DNA of 64,000 nucleotides from Amoebophrya sp. A120 (taxonomy: Eukaryota; Protista; Dinoflagellata): the NCBI GenBank assembly GCA_905178155.1, contig CAJINV010000010.1:1819182-1883181 (forward strand), given 5' to 3'. Made by a program: the position numbers and the translations under genes. Numbering within the stretch: position 1 is the first letter of the stretch; every line of letters starts with the position of its first letter. The notes beneath the pieces were generated by a model, which ran no database searches, was not told the DNA's origin, and worked only from the letters and a program-made list of their open reading frames with translations. Of this stretch, positions 577 through 64,000 are shown piece by piece.

Positions 577-3500
577 CTACACCTCTACCCTCGCCAATCG
601 CGTATGCCAGCCGTGGGCAGCAAAATACTTCTCCATCAGTTCCTCCGCGGCTGCCTTGTACCCTGAAGCCGCTTTGTCACCACTCAATTTCGCCGCGTGC
701 GCAAGCAACTTCACCTGCAAACGCGAAAACGCAAATTTTTCTTCGTTCATCCCCGGGATCGTATCCAAGAAAAAAAATTGCGTTTGTGAGGCAGAAATGA
801 ATGCAGAACAGAACTACACGACGACGACACTTTTCGTGCAAGACAGCCCCTGCCCCAGACTCCTCTTTTCTTCATCACATGTGGTTACTTTAAAACATAG
901 GCTAGCTACGCTTTTCACAGAACAAGTTTGTCATGCTGTTCTTGCTGTCAGCCCAGTAAGAGCGTTACACTAGCACAGTTCATTTTTCTTGGATAAACGG
1001 GGCCAGGGAAGGTTTTCGGGGGCTTCTGTTCCAGCCAGTGGCCGGGTCTGAAGGACGAAGAAGCTTTCGGCTTTGGCACTTGATGTTGCGCGGAGTTATT
1101 CAGAACGGAGGTGGATGCTGCTGCTGCACCAATACGTCCTCGTGGAGCTGGTGCACCTCCACCACCTGCTGTCGTTCTTGGAACTATCTTGTCGGTGAGC
1201 AAAACATTCCGCAGTATGTCGGGTTGCAAATGCTGTTTCCGGAACCTCCGTGCTTGGTTCAAAAACTTGGTCGGGCGGATTCTCGAGAGAGAGGTAGTGC
1301 TGGCGGAGTTTGCTTTAGTACTATAATTCGTTGTGGAATTTATTTGGTGAAGATGCTGGTCGTGCTGCTCCAGAGCGGGCTCGTGGAGGTGCACGACAAG
1401 GCTGTCGCTGGTGTCACCCTCCACCATCTCCACCGCAAGATGCGCAAAGTCTTCCAGAAACCCGGTAATTCTCGGCACCGGGGTTGCGAAGTACATGTCT
1501 TCAAAGACCCGCTTCGCGTGGATATTGTGGCGACTGATCGAAGGAGTTGTCAGCTCCCCAAGGCTATGCATTTTTGCAAAAGTCCCGCAATCGTAGTGAT
1601 TGCAGTCATGGATGACAGATCTATTTTTGTACGCTAACCAGCAACATTACAAATTCCATTTTTCACGCTGACCAAATTTGTAATGCGAGGATTTGAACTT
1701 CTACTAGTACGATACTTTTGCAGTGGATAAGCTTCGTCCATCTCCAGGTCTAGATGATCCAGAAAAATCTTCCCCTCCGCCCCAAAAATCCCCCGCAGGA
1801 ATCCTTCCGGCAAGAGCCGCAGGGGTAGGAAAAGAAGATGCTTGCGCTTCTCCTGCGTCAGTTTCTGTTTCGCTTTCAGGAGCGTGGCTGTTTTGCCGAT
1901 GTTTGTCATGTCGCCAAACAAGCTGGCTGTGCGTGACGGAGAAGCAGAGTCGTCTTGTTGTGCTGGTCCTTGCTGGTCAATCGTTACCATTTCGGAGATC
2001 GCGGAAGAAGAAAACGGACTTCCCGCCCTCAAGAAATGCTCCTTGTCCTTCCTTGTTGTGTTCCCTATCGCTTTATCAAATGTAAAAATGTCTGGGTGTG
2101 GAAGATTCTGAGCCTTGTCATGCATGTTTTGCATGGGCCGCAATGTCTGTGATGCACGCCCTAGCATCACAGATTTTTTGAGGGCTTCGCGATGCCTATT
2201 CCGCATGACAAATGCCCTCTCCGCGTACCAAAAATTACATTCCCTTTGCTGCTCATGCAATACAGATTTTTTTGGAATCCAAATTCAGCATCACAAGTTG
2301 CATTCTTCCAGACCCAGACATTTTTACATTTGATAGACTTGCGCCAACGACTCTGCTGGATGGGGCTCCAGTAACCTCCGGATGTCGTGTATGAAAGTGC
2401 ACAAATCCCGCCCCCCCTCATTTGTCATGCAAAATCCCAAATGCAGGCTCTGCCTCTTGGCTCTGTTTGCATGACAAGCTCTGGTAGCTCAAATAGCACT
2501 ACACAACTCCAGTGTCAAAAGATTAACATTTGCCATGCAGAACCGAAACTCTTGCTGATGCTTGTATTGCCGTTCATGCTACACAAATGCGGGCGAGGGG
2601 GAGTTGTGCACTGTCACATCGTGCGAGAGGTCTTCCCGATTAACCCCGAGTTTGCTGGTTTGCGAGTCGAAATTCAAGTCCTTGAAGAGCGCCTGAGTCT
2701 TGTTCCCGATGGCGTTTGGATATGAATCCGCAGACGCGTGGTCGTCCTATCGTACTACTAGTAGAAACTGCGATACAAACTTCTTCAGCATTACGAGTTT
2801 GCCATGCTGATTTAGCTTTAAGAAAAAATAATTTTATGATGCATGATTGTGATTCTAGTACGAGTACGATGCCACATAAATTGCTGCGCCGGATATTGGA
2901 ACGCCTTTGCCAAAATGCCGCCCCGGGATCATCACGTAGTCTTCGAGGGCTTTTTCGTGTGTATCCTATGTAAAACAAACGTCCCCACCCCACAGTTGTC
3001 ATGCAGATTTGCATCTACAGGAACATCTGCAATGCGCATCCGCATGAGAGGACTTTGTAGTGATGTTTATGAGATTTGTAATGCTGTGAACAGGATGAGC
3101 ATGCGTCTTTGTGATGCGGCTGTCCTTGACAAGCCCGACTATACTACAGATGGAAACTTGTCATGCATAACTCCCAAAACTTAGAGATTTGTGTTGGAGA
3201 TTTACCAACTTCACTATGGTGTCGGCGGGACGTTTTTTCACAGGATAGTGTGGTTCCCGGTCCAGTGCAAAAACTCCGCTGTCCATGTTTTTCTCCGCTT
3301 GGAATGAGTCGATCACTCGAGCATCACCAGATAGATCACCCGGCGCTTGTCCTGCCCGTAGTCGAGGGCCTGCAATCGCAGTTTGCTCGCTGTAGAGGTC
3401 CTCTGTTGCCCGAATATGATGTCCTCGTGTAGTTTTTAGCGTGACAACTGCACGGTCGCGATCTGGTCGTCCTGACGAAGTTTTTGTTGCAGGGTCTTCT

Positions 3501-6500
3501 GCGTGGTGCGGAACACCAGCAGACTTAGCAAACAAATTCTTGTCGTTCATCCAGAGGAGAGGGCTGGTGGTCCGCTTGTTTATGACCACTTCCCTGGTGG
3601 ATCGTTGTTCATGAGACTGGTCAAGAACTACATCCGTATTTTTCGCATCAGCAACTGCAGGCTCAGCGCCTCTGCTTTTGCTTTTTCCCCCTGCTGGTGT
3701 TCTTGCTGTAGTTGGTGTTGGTTTTATTGCCGCCTCGACGAGGCTGCTTTTTTTGTGGCGATGATGCACTTGGAGCTGCTCCGTACTGGTTCTACTACTT
3801 GTTGTACTTTTTGCAACATCTCCAAACATCAGCTCGGCACCTCGTCCAGCATCTTCTCGTAATCCAAGCAAGTCGGCTTGTGTCAACAAGAAGCTGGTGC
3901 CCCCGTTCTTGCCGGGCGCACCAGATCTTCTCGTAGCTCTAGCTGCACCTCCTCCGGCTACGACGACGCCATCCACAAACCCACGTGATTTAGCTGCAGA
4001 AGAAGAAGTAGGAGAAACAACTCCTGCTCCTCCGAATCGATTGTTTCTACTGTCATCTTCTACTCCACGCGGGTCGTCGTCGTGGTGGAGGTCGAGAAGA
4101 AATTTCTTCTCGACGCGGCTTCTCAACTCCAGACCGCGATCGATCCTGCCTTCCCCGTATGAGTTGCAAAAGTGTCCGGGTCTGGAAGATTCTAAACTTG
4201 TAATGCTGTCTCTGGATTCTAAAAAAAATTGTATTGCATGACAAGCAAGAGGGCTCCAGTTTGTGCTACGCGGAGAGGGCATTTCTCATGCGGTAGAGGC
4301 CTCACAAAGTCCTGTAAATATCTGCGATGCTAGGGAATGCATCACAGACGTCATGGATCATTCAAAATATGCATGACAAAACTCAGAATCTTCCAGACCC
4401 AGACATTTTTGCAGTTGATACTCCGTCTTCGCCTTTCCCTTCCTGTTTCATCACATCGAAGTAGGATTGGTAAGAGCCTGGCTATGCAAGACAAATTTCC
4501 CGCACATGTACAAGATGCATCAAAAATTTCCCCAATTTGGAGCTTGAAGCTTGTCATGCTAAACCAGGATCGAGGCCAAGTTTTGCCATGCAGAAACCGC
4601 ATTTTTACGTGTACAGGAAATTTACTGTGGATACTGGTGTCTTTGGATTGGGCAACCGGATGTCCTCGTCAAAATCGTCGTCGTCTTCAGGTTATGCATT
4701 GCAAAAGTATAATCGTCGTACAACCAGCCGCAATTGCGTTCACGACTTCGCTCAGCACGGGGAATTGCCTACGATGGAACAAATTCATTTCATCTGTCAA
4801 GCATGATTGCAACTCCCACGAGCAGAAGTACGATAAAATTTTGCACAGGATAGCAATACACCTTCTCCTTCTGCGCTTTGCTTGTCGTTGTAGAAAAGCA
4901 GCGGCGTCCCAGCAGCGGCCTTGGCACTTCTGGCGTTCTTGGCGGAAGCGTCGTTCTTGCTCGGTTTGGTATCCTCTACACCGCCTTCCCCGACCAGCAA
5001 CCGCTGCCCGTCTTGGGAAGTAGAGGTAGCACTAACATGATTGCTAGTAGATGATGACTCTAGAAGAAATAACTTCTCGCCGATGATTTTTTGGCTCAGC
5101 TTCCAGTCAAGTTGACTGCCGTTCTGAAAAATCGCGGGCATCTTCAGGTGGTGCGGGTTTTTGTTGGAAGGCAGAGACGAGAAAGAAGCAGATGAAGAAG
5201 CTGTAGTTCTTGATGCGCCACTTTCATGACTGGTCGCGTTCTTATTCCCCGACACGCCACCTTCTAGCCGTTTCAGTAGGTACTTTTTCAAGTGCTCTGA
5301 CATCACAGAGGACAGCCTTCCCAGGCCCCACGTCACAATCGCGCGAAACCACCTGCTCGGGCCCGACTGCACGTAGTCGTGCGGGTTCGGGATAGTTTTG
5401 CTAGCATGGAGTTCTTTTGGAAAGTTGTAGGATAGTTGACGTAGTTGCGTCTGCTCTGATGTATCATCTTCCCGCTGCGAGTTCTTCTCCTCTTCGGGGT
5501 TGATGTTCGAGAAGAGCGAGCTATGTCCAGCCGCATCCACTTCTTGCAACGGCACTTCGACGTCCGCGATGCAGGATTGGAAGTCCAGAAGAAACAACCA
5601 CACCCGCAAAATTTGGAGTGCGTACCAGGCAATCGGGGTGGTTGTTGTGCCAAAGGACGGTGAGTTGATGTCCTCGCCAGGGTCCATTTTTTCGGAAGAT
5701 GAATTTGTCGTACTCGATATAGTTTCCGTGGTATCGTGCCCATATCTTCCAGCGTTTATTTGGCTTTTTTTTTCATCATCGTCGTCGTGCGCCAACCATT
5801 TCTCCAACACAGCCAAAACGTGCAGCTCGACTCTGACGAATTGCAGACAGTAAAACGCCACAACTTCTTATGACAGTGCACAACTCCCCTTCTCCCTCAT
5901 TTGTATAGCATGAACAGCAATACAAGCATCAGCAATAGTGCCGGTTTTGAATGACAAATGTACACTGGAGCGTGGTGCTATTTGAACTACCAAAACTTGT
6001 CACGCAAACAGTGCCACAAGGCAGCGACTGGATTCGGGGTTTTGCATGACAAACGAGGGGAGGGGGAGTTGCGCACTGTCACACTTCTTCCAGCAAGTCT
6101 TCGCATCCGATCTGCAATTCCAACAAAAAACGTTTCTCCAACGTTTCCAGGAGGTCACGAAGACGAAATGGGGAGTGGAAAAGATCATGGGCGGCGGGAT
6201 AATCTGCACCTCGCGACGACGAGGAGGAGGACCGCTGGTCTGCCTGTTTGAAGGGCTCTTTGTTCGGTAGCTTTCGAGCGTACGTATCCAGGCTCCGACG
6301 GCGGCGGGCAGAGGAACTTTCATTAAACAAGCCCCCCTCGGTCAACACCTCCCCACCTTTTTCCTCATCGTCCCGCTCGTCATCTGTGACAAGCAGCGCC
6401 AATATGATACTGCACAACCCCCCCTCCACCTCATTTGGAATGGCACAAATAGCAATACAAGCGTCAGCAAGAATGCAGGTTTTGCATAACAAATTCATTC

Positions 6501-7497
6501 ACTCACATTTGTACTGCTGTTTGAGCTGCAGCCAGAACTTGTCATGCAAAAAGTGCCAGGAGGCAAAGGATGCATTTGGTACTTTGCATGACAAACGACG
6601 GGATGAGGGGAGCAGGTTGTGCACTCTCATAGCCAACACAGAGTTGAGCAAAGCCAGCCGATCCTCGACGGAGTGGGCCTCCGTGTGGTACTTCTTCGTG
6701 TATTCCAAGGCGTAGTGGAGATGCTCGGTCGGGAAATCTGCCTCCACGCCGAAGCCCCGCTTCTTCGCGATGTTCGCCCTGATTCTAGCCGCAACCGCGT
6801 GCACGTCCAGGGCCGGCGCGGATGATGAAGAAGAAGTTCTTCGCCTCGCAGGTGCGGAAATAAATCCGCACCTCTCGTGGACTTGAGACGTCACGTCAAT
6901 GTGGTCACGACTGGTGATATGCATTGCAAAAGCATCGTACTAGTATAAATAACTGCATCACAAATTATATTTTCCTCAAGAACAAATAGGGAATTTGTCA
7001 TGCTATATCAGGTGGAAAGTATAGATTTGTCATGTATGACGAGTGCGATACTTTTGCAATGCATAGGCGAGCAAAGTTGCTGATGTTCTCATTCCCGTTT
7101 GCAGCTGGCCTCCGCGTGTTTTCTTTCCTGCCGACAACTGCGGACGAGAGAAGACGTCAAGGAAAAGTGTTTCGGCGTTGAGAGTGTCATCACCTTCACC
7201 GCCCCATCGACCTACTAGTAGAACTGGGTCAAGAACAGGAGCATCGCCGAGAGCAGGAGCAGCCCCTTCGATTCCCATATTCGTTCCCGCCGATGTTCCT
7301 GCTACGTCGTGGAGCCGCCCGAGCACTACTTCGCGGAGCCTCCTTTCCAACCTTGCTTCGCGCTGCTGGTCAAATATTGGGCCGGGATGGTGTAGGAGAT
7401 GCCACGCACCAGCATATTTGCTCCCGCCCCCGCCCGCTGCGTGATGCCGTTCTTCTTCTGGTTCGAACTTGAACAGTGCGGGCCCGAAAAAGTTCAC
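577..7497 (-). CDS. Large low-complexity hypothetical protein, 13 exons split by 12 introner introns
   Basis: All 12 junctions join in frame when element+5 nt is removed; stop at 577. No ATG at the 5' end, so it is probably continuous with 7862-9272 via GT-AG intron(s) (GTAAGT donor at 7920, TAG acceptor at 7509). Confidence 0.75.
762..995. mobile_element. Introner (singleton family)
   Basis: TIR TATCCAAGAAAAA/TTTTTCTTGGATA; TSD decayed; frame restored. Confidence 0.75.
1565..1729. mobile_element. Introner family B
   Basis: TIR TAT..TGCAAAAGT; TSD decayed; frame restored. Confidence 0.75.
2074..2335. mobile_element. Introner family A
   Basis: TIR TATCAAATGTAAAAATGTCTGGGT; TSD CGCTT/GACTT. 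Confidence 0.9.
2390..2618. mobile_element. Introner family C
   Basis: TATGAAAGTGCACAA...TTGTGCACTGTCACA; perfect TSD TCGTG. Confidence 0.9.
2721..2895. mobile_element. Introner family B (degenerate)
   Basis: TAT...ATA ends; perfect TSD TTGGA. Confidence 0.8.
2962..3247. mobile_element. Introner family D
   Basis: TATCCT..AAACGTCCC TIR; perfect TSD GTGTG. Confidence 0.9.
4158..4420. mobile_element. Introner family A
   Basis: Family A TIR; TSD CCCCG/CTCCG. Confidence 0.9.
4483..4633. mobile_element. Introner (singleton family)
   Basis: TAT..AAATTTCC imperfect TIR; TSD CTGGC/CTGGT; frame restored. Confidence 0.75.
4693..4852. mobile_element. Introner family B
   Basis: TATGCATTGCAAAAGTAT...GCACAGGATA; TSD decayed; frame restored. 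Confidence 0.8.
5869..6083. mobile_element. Introner family C
   Basis: Family C TIR with ACA end; perfect TSD CTTCT. Confidence 0.9.
6403..6631. mobile_element. Introner family C
   Basis: Family C TIR; perfect TSD GCCAA. Confidence 0.9.
6918..7065. mobile_element. Introner family B
   Basis: TIR TATGCATTGCAAAAG; TSD GGTGA/GGCGA. Confidence 0.9.
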
Positions 7498-7861
7498 CCA
7501 CCAAGCGTCTATACTGATGAAAAGAATAAAGTGCCCACTTCTATTTTAGGGCCGGAAACAAATTTAGTACTTAAAAAACATGTGTAGAAGTTGCGGCCTT
7601 GATCCGTGTGGCATCAGCACGAGCCAGGTCTTCGTCTTTTATTTTTTGTCTTTGATCCTTGTCCAGCATGACAAACGTTTTGTTTTTGATGGTTCCGACC
7701 TCCCTAATCTTGTTCGAACAAGCTTCTACCCTTCATCGTTTTTACGAACTGCAGTAATCTACATGGAATAGCCGAAAAACTGCTGCTCTTGTTGCTGTGT
7801 AGCCCGCGTTCACACAGAGCATTCTCCGACGCCAACTGGAACTGACACTGAGCAACATGCA

Positions 7862-9272
7862 CTATTCATGCACTATTGATAGATAATTTGTTCTCCTGAT
7901 TGTTGTATGGGTGCACTTACTTTTGTGTCGGATAGCGTTGATACGTCGAAGAAAGTCTGCCTGGGTTATAAACATGCTTCTTGTCATCTCCTCCTCCTGC
8001 TCGAGAAAGTCACTGGGTGGGGCGTCGTCGGGAAAAATTGCATCTTCATCGGTGGAAATCTGCCCCCCGTGCCGCTTCTGGCTGTTTGATATTTCCCGTT
8101 GATGCAGCTTGTTCTGCTCCTGGCCGCTGGTGTTACCAACCACTCGAGCAGGTGGCAACGCCCTCATTTTTCCAGTTTTCGTACTAGTTTCCTTGGTCTT
8201 CAAGAAGACGACCTTTCGGCACAGGACGCTGCAGAGGGCGCGTATGGATGTGTCAGAGTTGAAATCGACAAAGTTGAAATAATTTGTCATGCATAAAATG
8301 GATGCCAGTTGGGACCCAGTTTCCAAGTCAGGCAAGACAAATTTCGGTGGTCCCTAAGTCCACTTTGTCATGCTGTTTAGGCAAAGAAGAGCGATTCTCT
8401 CATGCTACTTTAGCAGCTCGAGCTGTAACCCCAAACAGGCTTACAATCGGCCTCACTTGCCTGCTCTGCAACACACGTGCCTCAGGTCATGCATTTTATG
8501 CATTACAAATTATTTCAACTTTCACGATTTCAAACCTGACACTTCCATAGCGCGTGGTAGGAAGTCCTGGATATTAAATTGCGGGGTTAGCTGGTGTATC
8601 CTGTGCAAAAGTATCGTATTCGTATAAATGCAAGTCTTGCATTACAAATCTTTGTCTTAAGGCAAATCTGCATTACAAATTTTCTTTCTCATGCTGAAGA
8701 AATTTGTAATGCATTTATACGAGTACGATACTTTTGCAATTCATATGGTGGAGCGAAGAAGTAGAGTTTGTCATTGTCTTCTGTCCCGGCGAATAAGAAG
8801 AAGTTGAAATAAACAACGCTCGCGGCGACCAAACGTGTCGGTCCAGATTCAAGCAAAGCTTTTCCGCGTGGGAAAACGTGAACACCGTGCCATATCAAAT
8901 GCAAATGTGTCTGGGTCTGGAGGACGATGGCGAGACTTGTCATGCAGGCTTTCCATGGCCCATGAGGTCTGGCATAGAGCATCTAGCATGACAGATTCTG
9001 TGAGATCTCTATCATGCCTCTCCCGTGTGAGAAACTGCCTCTATACTTGTTCAGAAGCGGACAACTTTTATTGCTGACCATCAAAGAACGCAAATTTTTG
9101 CACGATCCAGACTTGGCACGACAAGTTGCAACCTTCCAGACCCAGACATAGAATTTGTAATGCATATCCCACCACCCACAGCCAAATCCCAGAGCTGCAA
9201 TTTCTCTTCCGGAAGCAGGGGCCGGCCGATGGCCGCCTGGAGCGAAGCGTGACGGGAAGACGAGAAAGACAT
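7862..9272 (-). CDS. Hypothetical protein (MSFSSSRHASLQ...), 3 introner introns; probably the 5' part of the 577-7497 gene
   Basis: ATG at 9272; removing the three elements +5 nt gives one continuous frame (..AVGGGTVFTFSHAEK..LTPQFNIQDFLPRALCSVLCRK..). Confidence 0.7.
8243..8549. mobile_element. Introner family F (diverged)
   Basis: TIR TATGGAWGTGTCAG; perfect TSD GCGCG. Confidence 0.9.
8597..8745. mobile_element. Introner family B
   Basis: TATCCTGTGCAAAAGTATCG; perfect TSD TGGTG. Confidence 0.92.
8893..9166. mobile_element. Introner family A
   Basis: Family A TIR; TSD TGCCA/TCCCA. Confidence 0.9.
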
Positions 9273-10530: not shown

Positions 10531-11702
10531 TCAAATCCGCCCGCCGTCTTGTCGCTGGGTCGTCGACGGAAAGCCGCCGCCTGTCTGTTCTACCGCAACG
10601 TCAATCAAGTCGTCGTCGTGCACGACTATGCAGTGCAAATATGTAGTCTCAGTAGTCACTTGTGGAAGATGAAGCAAGCAGATGGTTGCCATGACCACAT
10701 CGACTTCTCTCGTCGAGGATGTTTGTAATACATGGCATCTCCTAGCATCAAAGATCTTCTTCCACCGAAGGCTTGTTTTAATCTCTTTTTTAATGCGTAC
10801 TATCCGGGTCGTGCATGAGAAACGCGCCTTCCATGTTGCAGAAGCCAGGCTGTTTCTGTATCTCTTGCTGACACAAGAATACAGATTTTTGGCATTGTCC
10901 AAAGCTAGCATCACAAGTTGAAGTTTGCTCTCATCTTCCAGCACCAGATTATACATTTGCATTGCATAAAGCCGAGCGCATCCGGGGTGTCGTTTTCGCC
11001 CACCCGCTCCCCATCGACCATAAAACGCACCTCGCCAATGCGCAGGCTATGAGACTGCACAACCAGTTTACCTCTTCCTCCGTTGTCATGCAGAAACGCA
11101 ATGATGTATGACGATTTTTTCGTAAGTACCCGGCGGCTACGTGCTGTTTGTCATGCAGATGCTATATACTGAACTGATACTGATTCTGTCTGTGTTTCGC
11201 TTGTTCGTGCCTGCTTCTTCAGATGACATCTTGATGGTTTGAGGGGAGAGATGAAACTACTTCTACTTGTGCACTTTCATAGGTGCCGATCCGCTGGCAG
11301 TAGGCCTCCATCAGTTTTTTCAAAGTCGAATGCTTCTTGATCTTGAAGGACACTTCACCGCCCGTACTGTTCCGCACCCGCAGCTTATGAGAGTGCACAA
11401 CTCCACCTTCTCCTGATTTGTATTGCATGAACAGCAATACAAACACGAGCACACGTGGAGCCTGTGGATGACGAATTGACATTATTCGTGCGCCTAGTGT
11501 AGTACTGTCTGGGGTTGTTCCGGATGCAAAGAATACAACAAGGAAGCACTTGGATTTGGGCTTTTGCATGACAAATGATGCGGAGGGGGACGAGTTGTGC
11601 ACTCCCATACAGCTGAATGTGCGTGGGCCCGCCGGCGCCAGCGTCCGGGTTTTCCGGGGCGGCGGCCGCCGCGGGAGAACCAGAGTCCTGGTCGTCGGCC
11701 AT
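10531..11702 (-). CDS. SUMO: Small ubiquitin-like modifier (SUMO), 4 exons
   Basis: Spliced product ..HIQLRVRNSTGGEVSFKIKKHSTLKKLMEAYCQRIG..RIGEVRFMVDGERVGENDTPDALG..DDDLIDVAVEQTGG matches SUMO/Smt3 motifs including QTGG. Confidence 0.93.
10627..10968. mobile_element. Introner family A (degenerate), SUMO intron 3
   Basis: TATGCARTGCAAAT TIR; TSD decayed; SUMO frame restored. Confidence 0.8.
11048..11281. mobile_element. Introner family C (degenerate), SUMO intron 2
   Basis: TATGARA.TGCACAA TIR; TSD partly decayed; SUMO frame restored. Confidence 0.8.
11386..11609. mobile_element. Introner family C, SUMO intron 1
   Basis: Family C TIR; perfect TSD CAGCT. Confidence 0.92.
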
Positions 11703-24597: not shown

Positions 24598-25946
24598 ACG
24601 TAGGTCCTCTCCTCTTCCTGCATACCAGCGTCGGTTCGCTGCTGTTGCGAAGTCAGCAGCTGGTTAACGCCAGCTGCAAGACCAAGGGAGCGCGATAAAT
24701 ACATTTGTTTTTTTTTGAAGCTTGATGATCCACGACCGACTTGTTTCTATATTTCGATCCTGATTTTTTTCATTCTGAACCATGGTTGCGGCAGATCATG
24801 ATTTTTTATTTTGCGACTCATCGTGATGGTGAAACTGAAAATGCTCCACCTCACAAGGATCTTCTTCGTTCGGATCATTCTTTATTTTGACCAGAGAGGA
24901 AGTGGGCTTGTTCAGCTTCACGGAATAAAATTTCGATATATACAATCACAGTTGTCATCATCTGCAGCGGACAAAAGCACTACTGTGCGGCACTGCGTCC
25001 GCCGCAGGCTGCGGCTTCAAACCGCCAGCAAGAATGATGTAGTCTTTTTACTTATGCGATCACTCATGATGTTCATTTTGTTCCACATGGTGCCGATGCA
25101 TCTTCTCGAAAAAGAGCTCCAGGTTTTTTTTGCCCCGTTTGTAGTGGGAGAAGATGACAAATTATGAAGCCGAGAGTTCTTGCAGCACATGTTAGATCCT
25201 GCGACAGGGATACACGACACCATATTTTTTCTACCAGCACAACTCGTACGATTATATGTGTGTCTATTCTGGTAAGCAGATCGTGCTGGCATGTGGCTCT
25301 CTACTTGTGGTAAGTTGATGTACTAGCGAAAATTCATACTCATAGCAGCGGGCTGAAATAAATAAATGGGTGTCTTATCATCACGTGTTGCGGGGGCTAC
25401 GGCGGGAACAAGAACAACTTGATAGGTTGTTACTACGAAAAAAGAATGCTAGTACAGTTCCGGGAAGGTTGCCTATCAGTCTGAATCTTCATACATCTTC
25501 ATCGATATCAATCATATCGACTCGCGACCACGAATGGACCAAAACATATCCTCGAGGGCAGGGTCAAGGATGAAAATGGTATATTAGTTGTAGCTTGCTA
25601 GTTGTAGCAGCTAGCATCGGTGGGTAGTTAGATGGAAGCTAGAAGTAGGTGGGAGGATGAAGAGATCGCTCGCCAAAGGGTCAATTTCAGAATAAAACCG
25701 GGAATATGTGCCGCTGGTGGCGCTACTCGCAGGAGTCCACAAAACATCAAAAGGATTGTACAAAGCAGCAAAACAAAGGACCACCTCCAAGCAGCGCGCA
25801 CTACCATAGATAGGGAGTACCGTTCTCTAACAGCATTTCCATCCAAAATTTTCTATCTCCGCACATTATTGTACAGCGCCTGCTGCTGCTGCACTTGCGG
25901 TGGAACTCCAGCTCCAGCACCCTGCTCCGGTCCGCCCCCCTGTGAT

Positions 25947-53692: not shown

Positions 53693-56600
53693 TCAAAAAC
53701 AAGAAATACGTTGATCACGAGCTGCAGCTGCCCCGGCAACCTGCTCCTGCTGGTAAAAACGAGTAGCAGATTCATGTTGGTCCACATGATGGCGCTGTTG
53801 ATAGTTTTCGCCGCCACATTGCTCAACTTGTTCACGCCGACATGATGTTGATGCGCCAGCACTACTACCTCCTAGCCAGCACGATTTCCCCTCCTCCAAA
53901 ACTTGTTTTTCCAATTCTGGTATCAAATGTAAAAATGTCTGGGTCTGGAAGAGTTATGCTGTTTTTGCATGACACAGAAGGGGCGGCATGGAAGCTCTAG
54001 CATCACAGGTTTCGAGAACCTTCCGCAATGCCGAATCCGCATGACAAGTCCCCTATTTTGCTGACAAAAAGTGGGAGCTTTTGCTACGTATGCATGAGAG
54101 ACTTTTCTGTGTTCTGAAATACGCATTACAAGTTGCATCCTTCCAGACCCAGACACTTTTGCATTTGATATCCGGATTTTTTTCCAGTACTCCCTCTTCC
54201 AGATATATGTAGTCAAACCGGAAATCTTGCTTCAACCGCTGGCGCCAGGCTTTTTCGTGGTCGAAGTAGCGGTAGTCTCCCTTCTCAAATTCACTGTTGC
54301 ACTCCCTCGGCTCCGACTCCCGCTGAAACCAGAGATTGTAAAGTTTGTGGTAGCGCCAACCCAATTTTTCCAGCTGCGCCGCGGCCAGCAACTGGTCGTG
54401 GCTGTTTTTTTGGTAGTAGAAAACGAAGAAAAGCGTGTCCAAATCGTATTTCTCTTGCTGATATGCATGGCAAAAGCATCGTGCGTAGTATAAATCGCAT
54501 GACAAATTTCATCTTCAAGAAGAAAATGGGAATTAGAATTTGTAATGCAAAATTAGGTACGAAAGTAGATTTGTCACGCATGCCTGCACTTACTAATAGT
54601 ACGATACTTTTGCACTGCATAGCTGAAAATGCTCCTTCGTGAGGATGTTTTGCGGGATCCTCGGCTGAGTCGACGGGTACAGATGCTGGGGCTGCTGGAT
54701 CAACATCGCGCTTGTTGTCCTTTGTGCTGCCTGCTGCTGATGCATTGGAAGATTTGTAGAACTTGCGGTGTGGGTGTAGGGAAACCTGATGGATATGATC
54801 ATGAAAATAATCGTCGTGCGAACCAGTCGTCTGAAAGGGGAAGTTCTTTCGGAACAAATTGAAAAAATTTTCGAGATTTTATAGATAGAATGTGCACGAC
54901 AGGACCGGAGAATCTTCATAAAGTGGAACTACAACATACGAACAGAAATAGCTACCAAGAAGTCTACCAAGGGTAGTATCGGGGGACGGGCATATGGTTT
55001 TCGGTAGAAGCACTCGGACGGACCTTGGAGGTGGTCGCACTCGCAGCTTCGTTTACGAAGACTTGTCGCCCCTTATCATGAGCTTCTCTGCCGCAAGAGC
55101 TGCCACGTCGGAGTCCAACATCTTCCGCTCCAGCATTGTTGAAGACAACGGCCGGTGCATCACGCATGTCCACGTCACGTCGGGAGCTGCCAGGAACTCC
55201 TCGTCCTCCACTGGTGCGCCCACCATACTCTGGCCCTGGCGCCGCATTTTATGCATTGCAAACATGTCTGGGTCTGGAAACTTGTAATGCATGGCTGCGT
55301 ATTGCAGTGCCACTGCAATACGCAGCCGTGCATGACAACGTTACGTATTCCACATGACAAAGTACGTTTTTGCATGAGCATGACAGGTAAGATTGCCTTT
55401 GCGCGGCTATGCAACACAGATTCTCGAGTCATGCCAGACAAGCATGACAAAAATGCACTCTCCCAGACCCAGACACATTTGCAATTCATACATGTCGTCC
55501 GACGACGACATCCTGCTCATCCCAATCCTGTGCAAAAGTATCGCATTCGTATAAATGCAAGTCTTGCATCACAAATTTTTTTCTCAAGGTAAATCAGCAT
55601 CACAAATTTCATTTCTCATGCTGAGGAAATTTGTAATGCATTTATACGAGTACGATACTTTTGCAGTTCATAATCCCAATCTGAATCCAACTGAAAATCG
55701 TCCGAGGAAGTGTCCGACCCCGAGTCCGTTCGGAACACTGGATCCGCCGCGAGGTCCTGTTCCCAGATGATATCGGGATCGGAATGGAGGGTGTCAGTTA
55801 GGGGCGACGAGGATGCACGCGGGGCGGCGCTTTTTGATTCGTCGCGTACGTGTTGCTGCTGATCGTAGTACAACTTCCTCGCGCAGAAGTGGTCTTCCTG
55901 GTGGGCAGTACCCCGCTCAAGAAGGTGCTCGCCCTCGACGTTGTGCTGAGAGTTGATGTCCTTCTCCTTCATGTAATACAACCCACTGCCCGTTTGTCTA
56001 CTTTGTGTGACGGCTTTATGGCGACCCCCTGTAGTTTCCTCCGTACCTCTTCCTCGAACACGAGAGCCATCGCCTTTGCTTTTATCCCGTAGGAAGCCGT
56101 CCTCGTTGTTCTTTCTCACCTGCTCTTTGTAGTCGCGATGCTGTACTGTACTCGCAGTACCGCGAGGAGCAGGACCCGGGTGATCATGCTGATGATGTTG
56201 ATTCGTCGCAATAAACATGGACTTGGTTCGCCTCGTCGAGTAGCTGTCATCGTAATCGAGCATACTGTGCAGACTCAAAATCTTCGGCTCGGAGAAGGTT
56301 TTTGTCGTGCCAGCAGCGTCGAGATTTGTCTTCACGTAGTGGTCGACGTCGACGACGTTCTTCGTGCTAGATGAAAAATGCTGCTTGCTCTTATTTTCGA
56401 AGTAGCTCGCATGCCCAGCCTGAAACAACTCGAATTCCCTCTGGTTTTTGCAGCGGAAGAGCAAAGATCCGGATCCGGGCCGCTTGATTTTTTCTTTGTC
56501 GGTGTTTTCTTTAACGTCGACCGGAGCTGCAGTAGAGGACGAACTATTTGCTGCAATTCTATCTGGATTCATTTCTGCACTTGCTGTGGAAGTCCTCGCT

Positions 56601-59600
56601 CCTGCTGCGCCTGGGTCAGCAATACCTTGACGTTGACCTTCCTCGTCCGCGGGAAGTGCTAGAGCTAGACCGTCGTCGTCCTCCTCCTCTCCAGTTTTCT
56701 CATTCTGCTGTCCTGTGGCCGGTAGTTCTTCCACCTGCTCTTTTGCTGGCTTAGAAGCTGCATTTTTCCTGTGCAGCTCCTCCCTTGCAGCTGCAGTGGA
56801 GCAGAACTGCGCGTGTCCAGAGGTAAACAGCTCGACCTCGGCGGGGTTTTTCAAGAGAAAAATTGATTTTGGGTTGGTTTCCGGGCTCGTGTTGAAGGTT
56901 TTTTCAATCTCTTTCAAACGCAATTTCAGCTGGTTGTGTTTCTTGTCTTTTTGCTGAACAATGCGAGCAGGAGGGTTGATACTATTTTCCGAGGTGGCCT
57001 GCCTTAGGTTTTCCTTTTCAGCTTCAGCGTCCGCTGCTGCAGTATCAATGGCAAGTCCTGGAGCACCTCCGCTGCTTGTTGTATGTACGCCAACAGGTGG
57101 ACCTCGTCCAAACGAACTACCCTGGTCGCCAGATGTACGGTTTTTGCCACACAACGACGACGAAAAATCTTGTGGATTTTCGACATTTTTTGCTTCCTGG
57201 GTACTAGAACTAGGAGCACCAGCTGTGGTAGTCCTCAGAGGTAGCGCCACGGGGATGACGTCAAAAATTTTGGAAGAGGAGTTGGCTGTCGGCCGCGGGT
57301 GCCTCAGATTGTTTGTAGCGACTTGCTTCTCGAACATCGTCCCTGGCGGGGCAGGGGGAGGAGCACCTCCACCTCCTCCCGCACCAGCATCAGATGTCGT
57401 AACATTTTTTTCCAATATCTTAGTTCCGCTCGTCGTAACGCCCGCACCCGCTCCGTTTGAAGAAGAAAATACTGGGTTATGCACCGCCAAGCCTTCCTGT
57501 ACGAGCTGCTTCTCGAGTTCTTGGTGGAGCAACTCTCGGTCGCAGAGCGACTGCAACCGCTTCCGTTCCTTTTCCTGCGGAAAGAGGACCTGCAGTTTCA
57601 CGATTTATCAACGTGCCAAATTCAGCATGCTCTACGAAGCAACAAATCAAAATAAATTCTCAAACATGAGGGTGAAAAATTTATTCCGTTTCAACATGAT
57701 CTTCATTGTGCTCAATACGCTACTTTTAAGCCAAACGATCACTACCGGCGACACAGTTTCCGGTAGCAGCTTTTGTAGCTCCAAAACTGAGGGTGGTCGT
57801 GATTGTCTCGGATGCAATAGAGGGCCAGTCGTCCTCATCTGCGGGTCTGTTCCGTTGTACATGCCCTGAGGGTGGATATGGTCATGCCCCCGCGGCAAAG
57901 TAGGATCGCCCGTCTGTAGTCCAAGTCCACCTTGCCCAACATAATCTGGTCGCGCCGGTCGTGCTGGTGCAACACCCCCACGACCTGGCGGCTGCCCAAA
58001 ATTGAGCGCCGGGAGTGGGGGCGGAGTGGTTGAGTTAAAAGGGTAGGAGGTCGCGCAGCCCCCGCGTTGGTGGAAATTTTGTTGTTCGAAAGAACTTCTT
58101 GTGTGATGATGTCCCCTGCTGGAAGGAACAAAGGGACGGGGACACGGGCCGCCTGACAAAGGATCAATTATAGGTGGACCACCACCAACAGCCCGCTGGT
58201 GCATATCAAATGTAAAAACGTCTGGGTCTGGAAGATTGCAACTTGTCATGCTAAATCTGCAGCATGCAAAAATCTGTGCTGCATGATTACCAAAAGTCGC
58301 CCAATTTTGACCAAGTCGGGAGGTAGTTTCTCATGCAGGATAGGCATTAGAAAGGTCTCGCAGAATCTGTCATGCTAGCTCCGGCATTCCAGACCTCATG
58401 GGTCATGGAAAAGCAGCATGGCAAATCGCGCATTCTTCCAGACCCAGACATTTTTACACTTGCTAGTGCATCTTCGCCTCTAATTCCGCAGGCGTGGGGA
58501 TTCTCATCGGAGTATTCTGAGTAAAAACGTCCCCACCCCAGAGTTGTCATGCTAATCTGCATGCTGAAAATGTTTCTCATGCGGAGCTCCATCAGAAGCC
58601 TTTTCTAGTCGTGTTTTGGAATCTGTCATGCTCCAATCAGCATGACAGACTAGATCTGTGATGCTGCTCAAACTAGCTAAACAGGATCACACTATGAGGA
58701 CAGACTTGTCACGCGAAACCACCAAAGCTGGCTGATTTGTCTAGCAGATTTCCCATCTGGACTCTGGTGTGGGGACGTTTTTGCTCAGGATATGGAGGCT
58801 GCAGGTACGGCGGGGCGTGACTACCACCTCCCTGCGAACGCCTTTGATGGTCCGGCACCGCAAGTTCGGGGGGCGGGGAGGTGATTTCGTTGCTCTTCGA
58901 GTAGTATCCTGTGCAAAAGTATCGTACTCGTAGTAATTGCAATCATGCATTACAAATTTCTTTCTCAAGGTAAATCCACATGACAAATTTCTTTTCTTAT
59001 GCTGAGCGAATTTGTCATGCATTTATACGAGTACGATACTTTTGCAATGCATAAGTAGGGATAGTTGTGGTGGTACTGTTGCTGATGCTGTTGATGCTGC
59101 CCCTGCCCGCCTCCTGCAGCTGCAGTAGCAGGTGGCGGCGCATGTTGATTCATGTTCCAGTTGTTCCCTGCTTGGTGATGGCTTTTCAAACATCCACCTG
59201 CAGAAGCTGTTCCGCCCAAAGTGGAAGTGACAGACCCGGGAACGGACGGACTCATGGACAGTTTCCGAATCGTCTCCAGCTGCACATACAATGGCGGCTT
59301 TTGGTTCAGGGGCGGCGGGGGAGGGGCGCACTTCGGCGGCGGAGGGTGGGAATGATAGGACGAGTTGTAGGACTGAGTTGAATGGGTATGATGTTGACCT
59401 CCAGTTGTGTCTTTGTCGAACGACGAAAAAGTTTTCCCCCGTGTCTGCCGCGGACTCCGGTCGCACAAACTCGTTCCACAGTCATCGAAGTGGGTCGAAA
59501 GGGAAATTTGCGGCTGGAGCTTCGGATCAACGTCTTCTACTTCATGCGGATGCGCCTGAAGATTATCATATTGCAACTCGGTTTCTTGCTCAAAAATTTT

Positions 59601-61033: not shown

Positions 61034-62215
61034 TCACGCCCCAGTTCTCTGCTGCGTCGTCGCTCCCCCGCCACCTCCGCTACTTTGATTCGCCACGTTC
61101 AGATACGGTGTGGGGTCGAATTTGTCCGGGGAAAAATTGGTGCAGTACTCGTTAATGCCGAACATTTTGATCACTTTTTCCAGAATGTACGGGTTCCGAT
61201 GGTCGCTACTCTTCATGACCGCGTCGTTAAAGTGCTTGCCCTGGGCTTTCAGCGCGAAAAACTTTTCTACCCTTTCCTGTAATTGCGGGTCCGGCGACCC
61301 TGGCGGGGAGGGGGGAAGCTTGATGTGGTCTAAATTATCGATGTAGTTTTCTACTTCCTGCTGTTCGTCCAGAGTGGTCTGGTGCGGGTCTACTACGGCA
61401 AAGGATGCAGCAGCAAGTTTTTGTCGCTTGTGCGAAGGCGTGTTTTCTACTACCGACGGCGGTGGTGGTTGACCTCCCCCTCCTGCAGCATGAGTAGTAG
61501 AGCCGTTTTGATTGAAACTTTTAGCACTCTTGCTGGTGCCTGTAGCTGCGCCATTACTTCTTGTGGTATTAATATTTTTTCCTCCTTTAGCATGTGGTGA
61601 AACACCCTCGTCGCTGTTTTCGGACTCTGGGGAGCGGATCAAGTCTTCCCGGGGAAGATCCCGCTGTTGTCGCTTTAAGTTGTTCATATCGGCCGTCGCG
61701 TTACTAGCCGTACTACGACCACTCGGCGGTGCACCAGCTGCCAGAGTACTAGGCTGCCGCGCAGCAGGAGGAGCAGCCTGCTCTTCTTCCTCCTCTTCTT
61801 CTGGTGTCATGACCACCACTTGCTGCATATGAAAGCCTCAGGTTGGAAATCCTCAAATTGGAAATAATTTGTAATGCAAAAAACGACTCCAGTTGAAGCG
61901 CCATTTGTAGTCGGCGCATGACAAATTTCCCGGGCGCTCAAAACGTGTCTGTCATGCTAGTTAGGCAAAGGGGTAGCCTTCTCTCGTGCTAATCAGCACT
62001 CCAATTCTTAACCCGTAGCAGGACAATAGTCGGCTTCCATTGCACCCTCTGCAATACAGTCTTTTTTGCGTCGCATTTCATGCATCACAAATTATTTCCA
62101 CGTTGAGGATTTCCATTCTGAGGCTTTCATACTGCATCGCTTCTTTGGTCAGGGGCTTGAGCTTCGGGTGCTTCTCCACCTTGTCGCTCTTTTCTTCGTC
62201 GCTGGACCAGTCCAT
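61034..62215 (-). CDS. HCNGP / SAP30-binding protein-like, 2 exons
   Basis: LPPSPPG..LQERVEKF...HFN......HRNPYILEKVI..FGINEYCTNF....FDP is the HCNGP signature; exon 1 MDWSSDEE. Confidence 0.85.
61828..62131. mobile_element. Introner family F
   Basis: TIR TATGAAAGCCTCAG..TGGAAATCCTCAA; perfect TSD CTGCA. Confidence 0.93.
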
Positions 62216-63349
62216 CTTGATGCTTATGTTTGTGTGCGAAGCAAATTTTCCGCTACTAGATTCTGCAGGCGGACCCTCACGAAACCAGGAACATACGAAA
62301 GTATCCAACTTCCAGGATCGTGACCGTGCTATTTTATTCTTGTCGCAATAGTGGAAGTGGACGTCGCGATAATTGTCGCAATAAAAAAGGTAGCTTTTGA
62401 TGTCGCCAGAATTTTAACGTAGATAAATGCGTGCCGCTGATAGATACATTAGAAAGCTTTCCACGAATAGCGAGCGCTTCAGACAGCAGGATCCAGAGGG
62501 ACAAAATCAGGGCACCCCCCCATACATCTTGTGGCAAAAAGCCAAATGGGATCTTGGTGCTTGTTTTAGTTTTCCGTTTCAGCATCTCGGCTAATATTTG
62601 TATGTGCAAGTGGCACCATTCGAGCATGTGCTAGAACATGATCTGGTCTAGTACTTCTAGGTGTAATAAAATTCAAAAGAATCGATCTTGTTGTGTTCTT
62701 AGTCGTTGACCTTTAGACTTCTAGCACGACGCTCTGAGAATGTGTTTTCAATCTGCATCTACAGTTCATTGGTAGAAGAAATCATCCATATTACACGACA
62801 GAATTTGAATTGCAGAGGATGAACATCATCGACAGGCTGGATGGCACACGCTCCTGCTGATGAAGTTTTTTTCATCCTTGCATCAAACACGGGGCCAAAG
62901 CCGCCTCGTATCATGTTGATCTTGTATACGAGCCTAGTTGTACAGCGCGAGGACATATCATCATACATCAAGTTCATTTCATCTGTGGGTAGAACGACTA
63001 CCTGTATTTGTACCTCGGTTTCTTTTTCGTCAGAATGAGGAATTCGATTTCAGCAAGACCAATTATAGCCTGAATAGCAACGTAGAACAAGGATGATTCT
63101 TGTCAACATGCTATCCACGCATAATCATAGCACTATTGTCATTCTATCCACGCAAGATCATGGGATTTGGTGCTGCCCTCGCTGAGTTGCCGGTCCGGAC
63201 CGGCGCGTGCGGCTTGGACATCAACCTGATAGTGTTCATCAATATGAAAGGCAATGTAGAAGTCTGTCTGTCATGCAGCTCTCGCATGAAAAAACGAAAT
63301 TGTCATCCTGCTTTCTGCATTACAACAAAAGTCACATCTTATGATTATA

Positions 63350-63828
63350 CGAGTTCGACGCGAATGGGTTGTCCGCACTGGTCGCGTTGCTGTTGCTAAT
63401 TCCGGCGAATCCACCGCCACCGCCACCACCGCTCATCTGTCGACCCCAAGAACCGTATGAAAGCCTCAGAATGGAAACCCTCAAAGTGGAAATACAAATA
63501 ATTTGTGATGCATGAAATGCAAGGCAAAAAAGATTCTATTGCAGAGGACACAATGGAGACCGACTGTTGTCCTGCTAGGGGTTCAGAATTGGGCTGCTGA
63601 TTAGCACGAGAGAAGGGCACCCCTTTGCCCACCTAGCATGACAGACATGCTTTGAGTGCCCGGAAAATTTGTCATGCGCCAATTAAAAATGGCGCTTCAA
63701 CTGGAGTCGTTTTTTTGCATTGCAAATTATTTTCACTTTTAGGATTTCCAACCTGAGGCTTTCATACACCGCCGCTGCTTGATCCACCGCCACCACCGCC
63801 CCACTGAGGAAGCTTACTCACGTTGTTG
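63350..63828 (-). CDS. Partial Gly-rich protein (internal/3' exons; gene continues beyond the window)
   Basis: ..KLPQWGGGGGGSSSGG / WGRQMSGGGGGGGFAGISNSN.. join in frame across an introner; gene end not resolved. Confidence 0.5.
63456..63766. mobile_element. Introner family F (inverted relative to 61828-62131)
   Basis: TSD AACCG/CACCG. Confidence 0.92.
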
Positions 63829-64000
63829 TGTCAAATGTAAAAATGTCTGGGTCTGGAAGATTCTGAGACTTGTGATGCATGTTTTGCATGACCCAGGACG
63901 TCTATAATGCACGCCCTAGCATCGCAGATCTTTAGAGGGCTTCATGATGCCTACTCCGCATGACAAGAAACACCCTCCCCGCGTAGCACAAACTAGACTC
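63829..64000. mobile_element. Introner family A (TGT end), truncated by the window edge
   Basis: TGTCAAATGTAAAAATGTCTGGGTCTGGAAG; body resembles 15570-15823. Confidence 0.85.

What the first reader, a model, noticed from the sequence alone, without database searches (positions are those of the whole stretch)
762..64000. Multi-family system of TAT...ATA mini-transposons with 5-bp TSDs acting as non-GT-AG introns
Seen: 57 elements in at least 7 families share TAT...ATA ends, TIRs and 5-bp flanking direct repeats of unconstrained sequence (34 perfect). Removing element+5 nt restores the frame at every junction translated, including 12/12 in the first gene and within conserved SUMO. Established: Amoebophrya genomes are known to carry non-canonical inverted-repeat introners, so the phenomenon itself is described. 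Inference: the junction dinucleotides are whatever the target was, so excision cannot depend on GT-AG. It must be measured from the TIR stem, implying an unusual spliceosome or a separate RNA-level excision machinery.
Basis: partly seen in the sequence, partly recalled or inferred. Interest (0 to 1): 0.92.

Follow-up and report, generated by a model that had tools for sequence, protein, structure and literature searches.

The report
Amoebophrya A120 transposon-derived non-canonical introns
Dozens of small mobile elements sit inside the genes of a marine parasite and are missing, with exactly five extra letters, from its deposited gene models although they lack normal splice signals; this is a published oddity of this very genome, and the new point is a likely fixed cut position that would make the removal mechanism testable.

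Summary
Real, and already published. The window is Amoebophrya sp. A120 (exons 100% identical to deposited A120 proteins). I count 56 complete TAT...ATA elements plus one cut by the window end, in 7 families and 6 singletons; the flanking repeat is 5 bp (34 perfect). In four database proteins all 37 element introns equal element+5 nt; five paralogous empty sites fit the same insertion size; 195 elements from a second assembly replicate the 5-bp repeat. Farhat et al. 2021 described these A120 introners (TAT start, inverted and direct repeats, RNA-seq support, no U1 snRNA). Refinement: seven junctions with unequal repeat copies share one register only: the intron starts 1 nt before TAT and ends 4 nt after ATA, even where the repeat has decayed. 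A motif GCAT[GTC]ACA marks elements and ordinary introns alike. Most likely a relaxed spliceosome; no RNA reads could be examined. The scan noted similar introns in other protists, none in this genome.

The parts
762..995 (-). Element, singleton; repeat 2/5; informative junction (registers 3-5)
1565..1729 (-). Element, family B; repeat 1/5; informative (registers 4-5)
2074..2335 (-). Element, family A; repeat 3/5; informative (4-5)
2390..2618 (-). Element, family C; repeat 5/5; transcript 5' end TGT
2721..2895 (-). Element, family B, degenerate; repeat 5/5; bounds fixed from P0003
2962..3247 (-). Element, family D; repeat 5/5
4158..4420 (-). Element, family A; repeat 4/5
4483..4633 (-). Element, singleton; repeat 4/5
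4693..4852 (-). Element, family B; repeat 1/5; fixes register 4 exactly
5869..6083 (-). Element, family C; repeat 5/5; transcript 5' end TGT
6403..6631 (-). Element, family C; repeat 5/5
6918..7065 (-). Element, family B; repeat 4/5; informative (3-5)
7510..7934 (-). Element, singleton, weak TIR; repeat 4/5; informative (1-5); found from P0003
8243..8549 (-). Element, family E; repeat 5/5
8597..8745 (-). Element, family B; repeat 5/5
8893..9166 (-). Element, family A; repeat 4/5; upstream of the P0003 start, in the same open frame
10627..10968 (-). Element, family A, third intron of SUMO; repeat 3/5
11048..11281 (-). Element, family C, second intron of SUMO; repeat 2/5
11386..11609 (-). Element, family C, first intron of SUMO; repeat 5/5
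14008..14259 (-). Element, family A; repeat 5/5
14943..15266 (-). Element, family F; repeat 5/5
15570..15823 (-). Element, family A; repeat 5/5; absent from the paralogous fragment near 24645
17361..17510 (-). Element, family B; repeat 5/5
23939..24260 (.). Element, family F, in a duplicated gene fragment; repeat 5/5; empty site at about 15468
24319..24597 (.). Element, family D, in the same fragment; repeat 5/5; empty site at about 15521
26015..26163 (-). Element, family B; repeat 5/5; empty site at about 19231
26246..26505 (-). Element, family A; repeat 5/5; empty site at about 19308
26562..26706 (-). Element, family B; repeat 5/5
26890..27100 (-). Element, singleton; repeat 4/5
27152..27469 (-). 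Element, family F; repeat 4/5
27735..27898 (-). Element, family G; repeat 5/5
28761..29009 (-). Element, family A; repeat 3/5
30041..30261 (-). Element, family C; repeat 5/5
30649..30798 (-). Element, family B; repeat 5/5
31457..31721 (-). Element, family A; repeat 5/5
31763..31902 (-). Element, family B; repeat 4/5
32121..32281 (-). Element, family G; repeat 5/5
32335..32591 (-). Element, family A; repeat 5/5
38093..38348 (-). Element, family A; repeat 4/5; informative (4-5)
38791..38942 (-). Element, family B; repeat 4/5
38971..39266 (-). Element, family A; repeat 5/5; transcript 3' end ATG
39354..39573 (-). Element, family C; repeat 5/5
46210..46380 (-). Element, singleton; repeat 5/5
46422..46680 (-). 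Element, family A; repeat 4/5
46738..46852 (-). Element, singleton, shortest (115 nt); repeat 5/5
47429..47680 (-). Element, family A; repeat 5/5
47848..48020 (-). Element, family D; repeat 5/5
53921..54170 (-). Element, family A, NOT2/3/5-domain gene; repeat 4/5
54462..54621 (-). Element, family B, NOT2/3/5-domain gene; repeat 5/5
55250..55490 (-). Element, family A; repeat 4/5
55524..55672 (-). Element, family B; repeat 5/5; transcript 3' end ATT
58204..58465 (-). Element, family A; repeat 5/5; transcript 5' end TAG
58513..58792 (-). Element, family D; repeat 4/5
58905..59053 (-). Element, family B; repeat 5/5
61828..62131 (-). Element, family E, HCNGP-domain gene; repeat 5/5
63456..63766 (-). 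Element, family E; repeat 4/5
63829..64000 (.). Family A element cut by the window end; left end TGT
580..8774 (-). Host gene = P0003 (1574 aa, named A120 by NCBI): 15 introns, all elements, all element+5
10540..11702 (-). SUMO gene with three element introns (3' end approximate)
25950..33668 (-). Host gene = P0001 (1520 aa, DUF7932, named A120): 13 element introns and 2 GT-AG introns; A25 ortholog P0002
36966..40917 (-). Host gene = P0005 (712 aa): 4 element introns and 5 GT-AG introns
46025..48435 (-). Host gene = P0004 (472 aa, PF00300 histidine phosphatase, named A120): 5 element introns
19171..19347 (-). Paralogous copy of the P0001 3' end without its two elements (empty sites)
23906..24670 (-). 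Duplicated fragment of the gene at 15440-15850: holds two elements the gene lacks, lacks one the gene holds

Best explanation
These are the introner elements of Amoebophrya sp. A120: short inverted-repeat elements flanked by 5-bp direct repeats that interrupt coding exons and are missing as element+5 nt from the deposited gene models, likely cut from the pre-mRNA at a fixed register (1 nt before TAT, 4 nt after ATA) by what is most likely a relaxed U2-type spliceosome. Steps: (1) shown: insertion adds the element plus one 5-bp copy of the target (empty paralogous sites); inferred: a DDE transposase encoded elsewhere moves these non-autonomous elements. (2) Shown in transcript-based gene models, not in reads: the mature message lacks element+5. 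(3) Inferred from 7 junctions: the upstream exon keeps 4 nt of the first repeat copy, the downstream exon 1 nt of the second, so the intron reads N-TAT(C/G)...ATA-NNNN. (4) Inferred: N-UAU mimics the host GUA donor without the first G; because both element ends are alike, either orientation supplies it; the 3' cut is set by distance from the element end, helped by the terminal hairpin and perhaps by the internal GCAU[GUC]ACA motif shared with ordinary introns. The catalytic machinery itself was not tested.
For: Identity: exons 100% identical to proteins named A120; terminal consensus TAT + 7 variable + AAA is the one Farhat et al. give for A120. Insertion size: five filled/empty site pairs, paralogs collinear at 89-91% after excision. 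Removal: 37 of 37 element introns in four proteins are element+5; those models were built from BLAT-aligned transcripts (P0005 comes from a library without names); A25 ortholog gap-free over about 15 residues each side at 8 of 13 junctions; SUMO collinear with solved chains; 52 of 53 coding elements carry an in-frame stop if retained; second assembly: frame restored by +5 at 31 of 38 junctions, both strands. Register: allowed values 1-5, 3-5, 4, 4-5, 4-5, 3-5, 4-5; only 4 is common; two of these have repeats decayed to 1/5; two family-B members in opposite orientation (1565, 4693) both need >=4, so the register follows the transcript, not the element. Donor likeness: +2 T 56/56, +3 A 54/56, +4 T 55/56; ordinary donors all GTA, 5 of 12 GTAT (7 of the 12 fixed independently by proteins); the nine commonest A120 non-canonical classes in Farhat Table S4 all have T second. 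Shared motif: 11.0/kb in elements, 5.0/kb in GT-AG introns (10 hits, shuffles 0.18), 0.04/kb in exons and elsewhere. A120 keeps nearly all spliceosomal proteins and U2, U4, U5, U6; Fritillaria is a precedent for a spliceosome handling non-canonical ends (abstract).
Against: No RNA reads were seen; the register rests on 7 junctions in 2 deposited models, of which only one fixes it exactly, and Farhat Fig. 3 calls the splice sites variable relative to the hairpin. A spliceosome normally needs the first G and last G; neither is kept (+1: 14 G of 56; 3' dinucleotides of 14 kinds). [quoted passage not shown] TAT conservation is equally explained by transposase needs and was my search criterion for most elements. 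The motif is present equally on both strands of elements (68 sense, 72 antisense), at no fixed distance from the 3' end, often 31-33 nt apart, which suits a DNA-binding site as well as a splicing signal; 5 of 12 GT-AG introns lack it. Differences between the two repeat copies are synonymous more often (13 of 20) than a fixed cut with one free copy predicts (0.38-0.46; p 0.01-0.07), which could mean some sliding. 7 of 38 junctions in the second assembly fitted other frames and 13 more were dropped for discordant strands.
Confidence: 0.55

Rival explanations
1. RNA-level removal by a non-spliceosomal, structure-guided cut-and-ligate activity, as proposed for euglenid nonconventional introns: an enzyme binds the terminal hairpin, cuts 1 nt before and 4 nt after it, and the element leaves as a circle or linear hairpin.
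For: 51 of 56 elements are predicted to pair their ends over at least 8 of 18 positions, against 2 of 12 GT-AG introns; z -6.7 and -5.1 for two folded examples; no conserved first or last base; U1 not found; Euglena introns need fixed spacers from a paired motif and leave as circles.
Against: Five elements, including 1565, 2721, 4483 and 4693 that are removed as element+5 in P0003, are not predicted to close the stem (minimum-energy folds are fallible); donor-like N-TAT and a motif shared with GT-AG introns point to common machinery.
Confidence: 0.3
2. Sliding, repeat-guided removal: the cut falls anywhere in the 5-nt repeat, or the gaps in the transcripts are partly reverse-transcriptase jumps between direct repeats across a hairpin.
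For: Synonymous excess among repeat differences, 13 of 20 (15 of 22 with the second assembly); hairpin plus direct repeat is the known recipe for template switching (recalled); Farhat Fig. 3 legend calls the sites variable.
Against: Removal is exact where the repeat has decayed to 1/5 or 2/5 (1565, 4693, 762); all 7 informative junctions favour the same side; retained elements would truncate 52 of 53 proteins, SUMO included, so removal must be real in the cell.
Confidence: 0.1
3. Programmed excision from DNA in an expressing stage, like ciliate internal eliminated sequences, leaving one repeat copy.
For: Element plus one repeat copy is the geometry of precise excision; empty paralogous sites exist. 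Not tested with DNA reads.
Against: The register is asymmetric and follows the transcript in both element orientations, which a symmetric DNA element would not give; elements are present in two independent DNA assemblies; the reciprocal filled/empty pattern of paralogs fits gain after duplication; no germ/soma nuclei are known in Amoebophrya (recalled).
Confidence: 0.05

Closest known systems
Introner elements / non-canonical introns of Amoebophrya sp. A120 (Farhat et al. 2021, PMC7789003)
   Same: Same genome; TAT start, 7 variable bases, A-run; inverted repeats; 3-5-nt direct repeats (5 bp in Fig. S19); many families; non-GT-AG; hairpins; alternative splicing mechanism already proposed.
   Different: Nothing of kind. 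The paper leaves the border position unknown and calls it variable; here the repeat is strictly 5 bp, one register fits 7 of 7 informative junctions, and an internal motif is shared with GT-AG introns. Its sentence on repeats 'four nucleotides upstream' and Fig. S23, which I could not see, may already hold the register.
Nonconventional introns of euglenids (PMC11282704 passages; PMC12501133 abstract)
   Same: Non-canonical borders, paired ends, repeats at junctions, cut at fixed spacing from a paired motif, presumed MITE origin.
   Different: CAG/CTG motif with 3 and 5-6 nt spacers and a purine at the exon start; excised as circles. Here TAT/ATA with 1 and 4 nt; excision product unknown.
Non-canonical introns of Fritillaria borealis (PMC13326754 abstract; PMC11282704 passages)
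   Same: Transposon-derived introns escaping GT-AG at genome scale in an organism with a U2 spliceosome.
   Different: Preferred ends AG-AC/AG-AT, U1 present, duplicated U2AF shown; none of this tested for A120.
TIR introners of Micromonas, Aureococcus, Polarella (PMC7789003 section 16; PMC12130899 passages)
   Same: Non-autonomous TIR DNA transposons whose target duplication is absorbed by splicing.
   Different: Those of Aureococcus keep canonical splice motifs; here 2 of 55 could be GT-AG.
IS3EU/GingerRoot DNA transposons (PMC10045372 passages)
   Same: TA..TA termini.
   Different: Target duplication usually 6 bp there, 5 bp here; no transposase seen, so the mobiliser is unassigned.

Membership tests
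Amoebophrya A120 introner elements (Farhat 2021) | Lies in the A120 genome | tested here: met
   Three exons 100% identical to proteins named Amoebophrya sp. A120
Amoebophrya A120 introner elements (Farhat 2021) | Inverted repeat starting TAT, 7 variable bases, at least 3 A | tested here: met
   Terminal columns; definition
Amoebophrya A120 introner elements (Farhat 2021) | 3-5-nt direct repeat at the exon/intron boundary | tested here: met
   5 bp only; 34 of 56 perfect; 158 of 195 in a second assembly, chosen without using the repeat
Amoebophrya A120 introner elements (Farhat 2021) | Repeated, in families | tested here: met
   7 families, closest pairs 87-92%, up to 96.8% to copies in the second assembly
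Amoebophrya A120 introner elements (Farhat 2021) | Non-GT-AG intron absent from the mRNA | tested here: met
   Indirect: 37 of 37 absent from database proteins as element+5; 2 of 55 GT-AG-capable; reads not seen
MITE / non-autonomous TIR DNA transposon | Short, TIRs, target duplication made on insertion, no transposase | tested here: met
   115-425 nt; five filled/empty site pairs
MITE / non-autonomous TIR DNA transposon | Cognate transposase with the same ends | not testable with these tools
   No whole genome held
IS3EU/GingerRoot | TA..TA termini | tested here: met
IS3EU/GingerRoot | 6-bp target duplication | tested here: not met
   0 of 53 and 0 of 195 perfect at length 6
U2-type spliceosomal intron | GT (GC) start and AG end | tested here: not met
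   At register 4: GT 14 of 56, AG 5 of 56, both 1 of 56
U2-type spliceosomal intron | Donor bases +2 to +4 like the host's own donors | tested here: met
   T 56, A 54, T 55 of 56 against GTA in 12 of 12 ordinary introns, 7 fixed independently
U2-type spliceosomal intron | Lariat intermediate, snRNP dependence | not testable with these tools
   No RNA data
Euglenid nonconventional intron | CAG/CTG paired motif near the ends | tested here: not met
   Ends are TAT(C/G)..(C/G)ATA (definition)
Euglenid nonconventional intron | Ends brought together by RNA structure | tested here: inconclusive
   Predicted for 51 of 56, not for 5; prediction only
Euglenid nonconventional intron | Excised as full-length circle | not testable with these tools
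   No RNA data

The most novel reading that the evidence does not exclude
A120 runs a U1-independent spliceosome that has dropped both terminal guanines: it reads N-UAU as donor, cuts 4 nt past AUA by a ruler, and recognises introns of both classes by GCAU[GUC]ACA. The transposons carry this whole code on both strands, so any insertion in either orientation is a perfect intron at once. That would turn the '65% variable non-canonical sites' of this genome into one rule.
Probability: 0.3. Interest if true: 0.75.

Novelty: already known. Interest (0 to 1): 0.4.

Why it matters
The system is a striking but published exception to the GT-AG rule. What this window adds is a precise, cheap prediction on a point that the original paper left open (where the border lies): one register, an invariant +2 U and a motif shared with ordinary introns. 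If it holds genome-wide it tells which parts of splice-site chemistry can be given up, explains why the elements are harmless in either orientation, and can be tested with RNA-seq data that already exist.

Tried and rejected
RNA reads: none could be examined, so splicing, register heterogeneity and excision products rest on database proteins. Whole genome not held: no search for transposase or snRNAs; Rfam found nothing in the window. No relative of P0001 in metagenome contigs (47 pattern matches, 0 confirmed). T depletion at repeat position 3 in the window (3 of 56, p 0.003) did not replicate (8 of 31): rejected. Synonymous excess looked stronger at first (13 of 17) and fell to 13 of 20 after two more elements were scored: suggestive only. 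Frame tests fix length only modulo 3, and in-frame GT..AG pairs exist within 15 nt for 27 of 56 and within 30 nt for 53 of 56 elements (2 of 56 within 6 nt), so frame alone does not exclude canonical alternatives; the proteins do. The motif as a fixed-distance branch point: not supported. GT-AG introns as recognisable converted elements: none has ATA 7 nt from its end. My first guess from SUMO consensus (Leu at the 11048 junction, register <=2) is untested; register 4 gives Thr. Family orientation by local BLAST was unreliable and was redone by global alignment. Roy et al. 2023 (Curr Biol) is not held.

Full report
1. Observation. A self-comparison of the window gave dozens of dispersed repeats of 110-350 nt. 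Pairing every TAT with every ATA within 800 nt (5486 pairs) and scoring terminal complementarity and a 5-bp flank, 49 pairs scored 12 or more, 24 of them with a perfect repeat; two shuffles gave none at that score. After adding members with a changed terminal base and two corrections from a database protein, the catalogue holds 56 complete elements and one cut by the window end, 34 with a perfect 5-bp repeat, 15 with one mismatch, 7 with more. Only length 5 is a repeat: mean identity 0.87 against 0.21-0.32 for other lengths from 2 to 9 (53 elements). There are seven families (17, 14, 7, 4, 3, 3, 2 members) and six singletons. All genes mapped lie on the minus strand; 53 of 56 elements lie in gene spans (30.1 kb element-free) and 3 outside (21.1 kb).

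2. The repeat is a target duplication. Two duplicated gene segments give filled and empty sites: 19171-19347 lacks the two elements of 25950-26545, and 23906-24670 holds two elements absent from 15440-15850 while lacking the one at 15570. After excising element+5 both pairs align at 89-91% with no gap at the five sites. A scan of metagenome contigs with a family A end gave 158 loci, all that were listed from one other assembly, none matching this window outside elements. There, 195 elements picked by inverted repeat alone had a perfect 5-bp repeat in 158 cases and 4/5 in 24; other lengths were at background.

3. Organism and removal. Three exons are 100% identical to proteins named Amoebophrya sp. 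A120; a fourth matched P0005 from an unnamed library. Mapped on the window, these proteins have 44 introns: 7 GT-AG and 37 elements, each element intron exactly 5 nt longer than the element (13/13, 15/15, 5/5, 4/4). The A120 models were built from assembled transcripts aligned with BLAT because of the non-canonical sites (Farhat section 25), so they stand in for the message, at one remove. Independent checks: the A25 ortholog aligns without gaps across 8 of 13 element junctions of P0001 (the other 5 lie in or near gapped stretches); in SUMO, +5 leaves one residue between Gly and Arg, as in chains 5gjl and 4bkg; 52 of 53 coding elements hold an in-frame stop if retained. In the second assembly, with frames called separately for each flank from codon usage, 51 of 195 elements had confident flanks, 38 on the same strand, and +5 restored the frame at 31 of these 38. 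Frame alone fixes length only modulo 3, and in-frame GT..AG alternatives exist within 15 nt for 27 of 56 elements; the proteins exclude them.

4. Where the cut lies. When the two repeat copies differ in a way that changes the protein, the database sequence tells how many bases (0-5) of the upstream copy stay in the exon. Seven junctions are informative: 1-5 (7510), 3-5 (6918), 4 (4693), 4-5 (2074), 4-5 (1565), 3-5 (762), 4-5 (38093); the other 30 allow all six. Only 4 fits all. At 4693 and 1565 the repeat has decayed to 1 of 5, so no aligner tolerance or repeat-guided slip explains the result, and these two family B members lie in opposite orientation (alignment margin modest). The inferred intron is N-TAT(C/G)...ATA-NNNN. 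Then +2 is T in 56 of 56, +3 A in 54, +4 T in 55, while +1 and the last two bases vary freely; GT-AG is possible at any register for only 2 of 55. Twelve ordinary introns in the window all begin GTA, five GTAT; the script looked for GTA near positions chosen by eye, but 7 of the 12 are fixed independently by P0001 and P0005. Farhat's Table S4 lists nine predominant A120 non-canonical classes, all with T second; eight also have A second-last, which is what N-T introns look like when read on the other strand (my inference). At this register intron phase 0 is commonest (24, 11, 18 for phases 0, 1, 2), also in the second assembly (19 of 31). Against a strictly fixed cut: repeat differences are synonymous in 13 of 20 cases against 0.38-0.46 expected (p 0.01-0.07), and Farhat's Fig. 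3 legend calls the sites variable.

5. Structure and an internal motif. 51 of 56 elements are predicted to pair their two ends, against 2 of 12 GT-AG introns; 1565, 2721, 4483, 4693 and 8893 are not. GCAT[GTC]ACA occurs in 53 of 56 elements of all families (11.0/kb), in 7 of 12 GT-AG introns (10 hits in 2009 nt; shuffles 0.18, maximum 3), and once each in 26.8 kb of exon and 22.3 kb of other DNA; 53 of 54 non-family-A elements of the second assembly have it. It lies on both strands of elements equally, usually 30-50 nt inside each end and often 31-33 nt apart, in ordinary introns 7 sense to 3 antisense. It may be a splicing signal, a transposase site, or both; about half of A120's canonical introns are at positions shared with A25, so they need not be element relics.

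6. Mechanism. Shown: insertion geometry, absence of element+5 from the gene models, lack of GT-AG. Inferred: RNA-level removal (0.9), register 4 (0.8), and a relaxed U2-type spliceosome as the catalyst (0.55 for the whole chain), because the donor keeps UA(U) at +2 to +4, the two intron classes share a motif and genes, and A120 keeps nearly all spliceosomal proteins and U2, U4, U5, U6 though U1 was not found. Rivals: hairpin-guided non-spliceosomal cut and ligation as in euglenids (0.3), sliding or template switching (0.1), DNA excision (0.05). No RNA reads were examined.

7. What is known. Farhat et al. 2021 (PMC7789003; seen: abstract, passages, sections 11, 12, 16, 25, 36, supplement passages and part 3 of 5; figures not seen, and Figs 3, 4, S19-S25 bear on the register) describe these elements in this genome: 65% non-canonical introns, 29,850 repeated introns, TAT start, 3-5-nt direct repeats, MITE likeness, loss of U1, an alternative mechanism. 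Gozashti et al. 2025 (PMC12130899, passages) class A120 introners, some with integrase-like frames inside inverted repeats. Passages of PMC11282704, PMC12005148, PMC11453091 and PMC10045372, and the abstracts of PMC12501133 (with its introduction) and PMC13326754 supplied the comparisons. I found no statement of a single fixed register or of the shared motif in what I read or in the listings of searches, but Farhat's remark on repeats 'four nucleotides upstream' may anticipate it and subscription papers such as Roy et al. 2023 were not available. Earlier notes of this scan report comparable hairpin introns in other protists and nothing on this genome; I did not test them.

8. Verdict. Observation confirmed; interpretation partly supported; already known; interest 0.4 for the testable refinement of an open point.

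Noticed in passing
window 21500-24900: Rearranged region: duplicated blocks (21643-21783 / 24744-24887; 13319-13473 / 23681-23897), a captured fragment of the 13926-18500 gene, and inverted arrays of a CCCGTAAATT-like unit at 22045-22411. Could be a gene-capturing mobile unit.
   Followed up: partly
window 18283-20442 (-): 720-codon frame without elements, with an internal duplication (18579-19107 / 19313-19890) and a piece copied from the 3' end of the P0001 gene without its two elements: copied before the insertions, or through spliced RNA.
   Followed up: partly
window 41667-44411 (-): 915-codon uninterrupted frame with a 2OG-Fe(II) oxygenase domain; no element in 2.7 kb although the average is about 1.8 per kb of gene.
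   Followed up: no
whole window: All genes mapped lie on the minus strand, as in the unidirectional clusters described for Amoebophrya.
   Followed up: no
GT-AG introns 37610, 39880, 40263, 63226, 54786: Five of 12 ordinary introns end in ATCAG, a possible extended acceptor consensus.
   Followed up: no
family B elements, e.g. 58920-59038: A second, inner TAT..ATA inverted repeat 15 nt inside the ends, without a flanking repeat.
   Followed up: no
window 41807-42012 and 41807-42143; 48788-49445; 59951-60451; 39889-40356: Weak TAT..ATA candidates from the scans, left out: no family match, two lie in or across open frames or ordinary introns.
   Followed up: partly
window 48879-48931 and 51614-51672: A 55-nt intergenic repeat pair unrelated to the elements.
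   Followed up: no
window 9577-9615: Perfect 39-nt palindrome upstream of the first gene.
   Followed up: no
Its origin was not looked into.
   Followed up: partly
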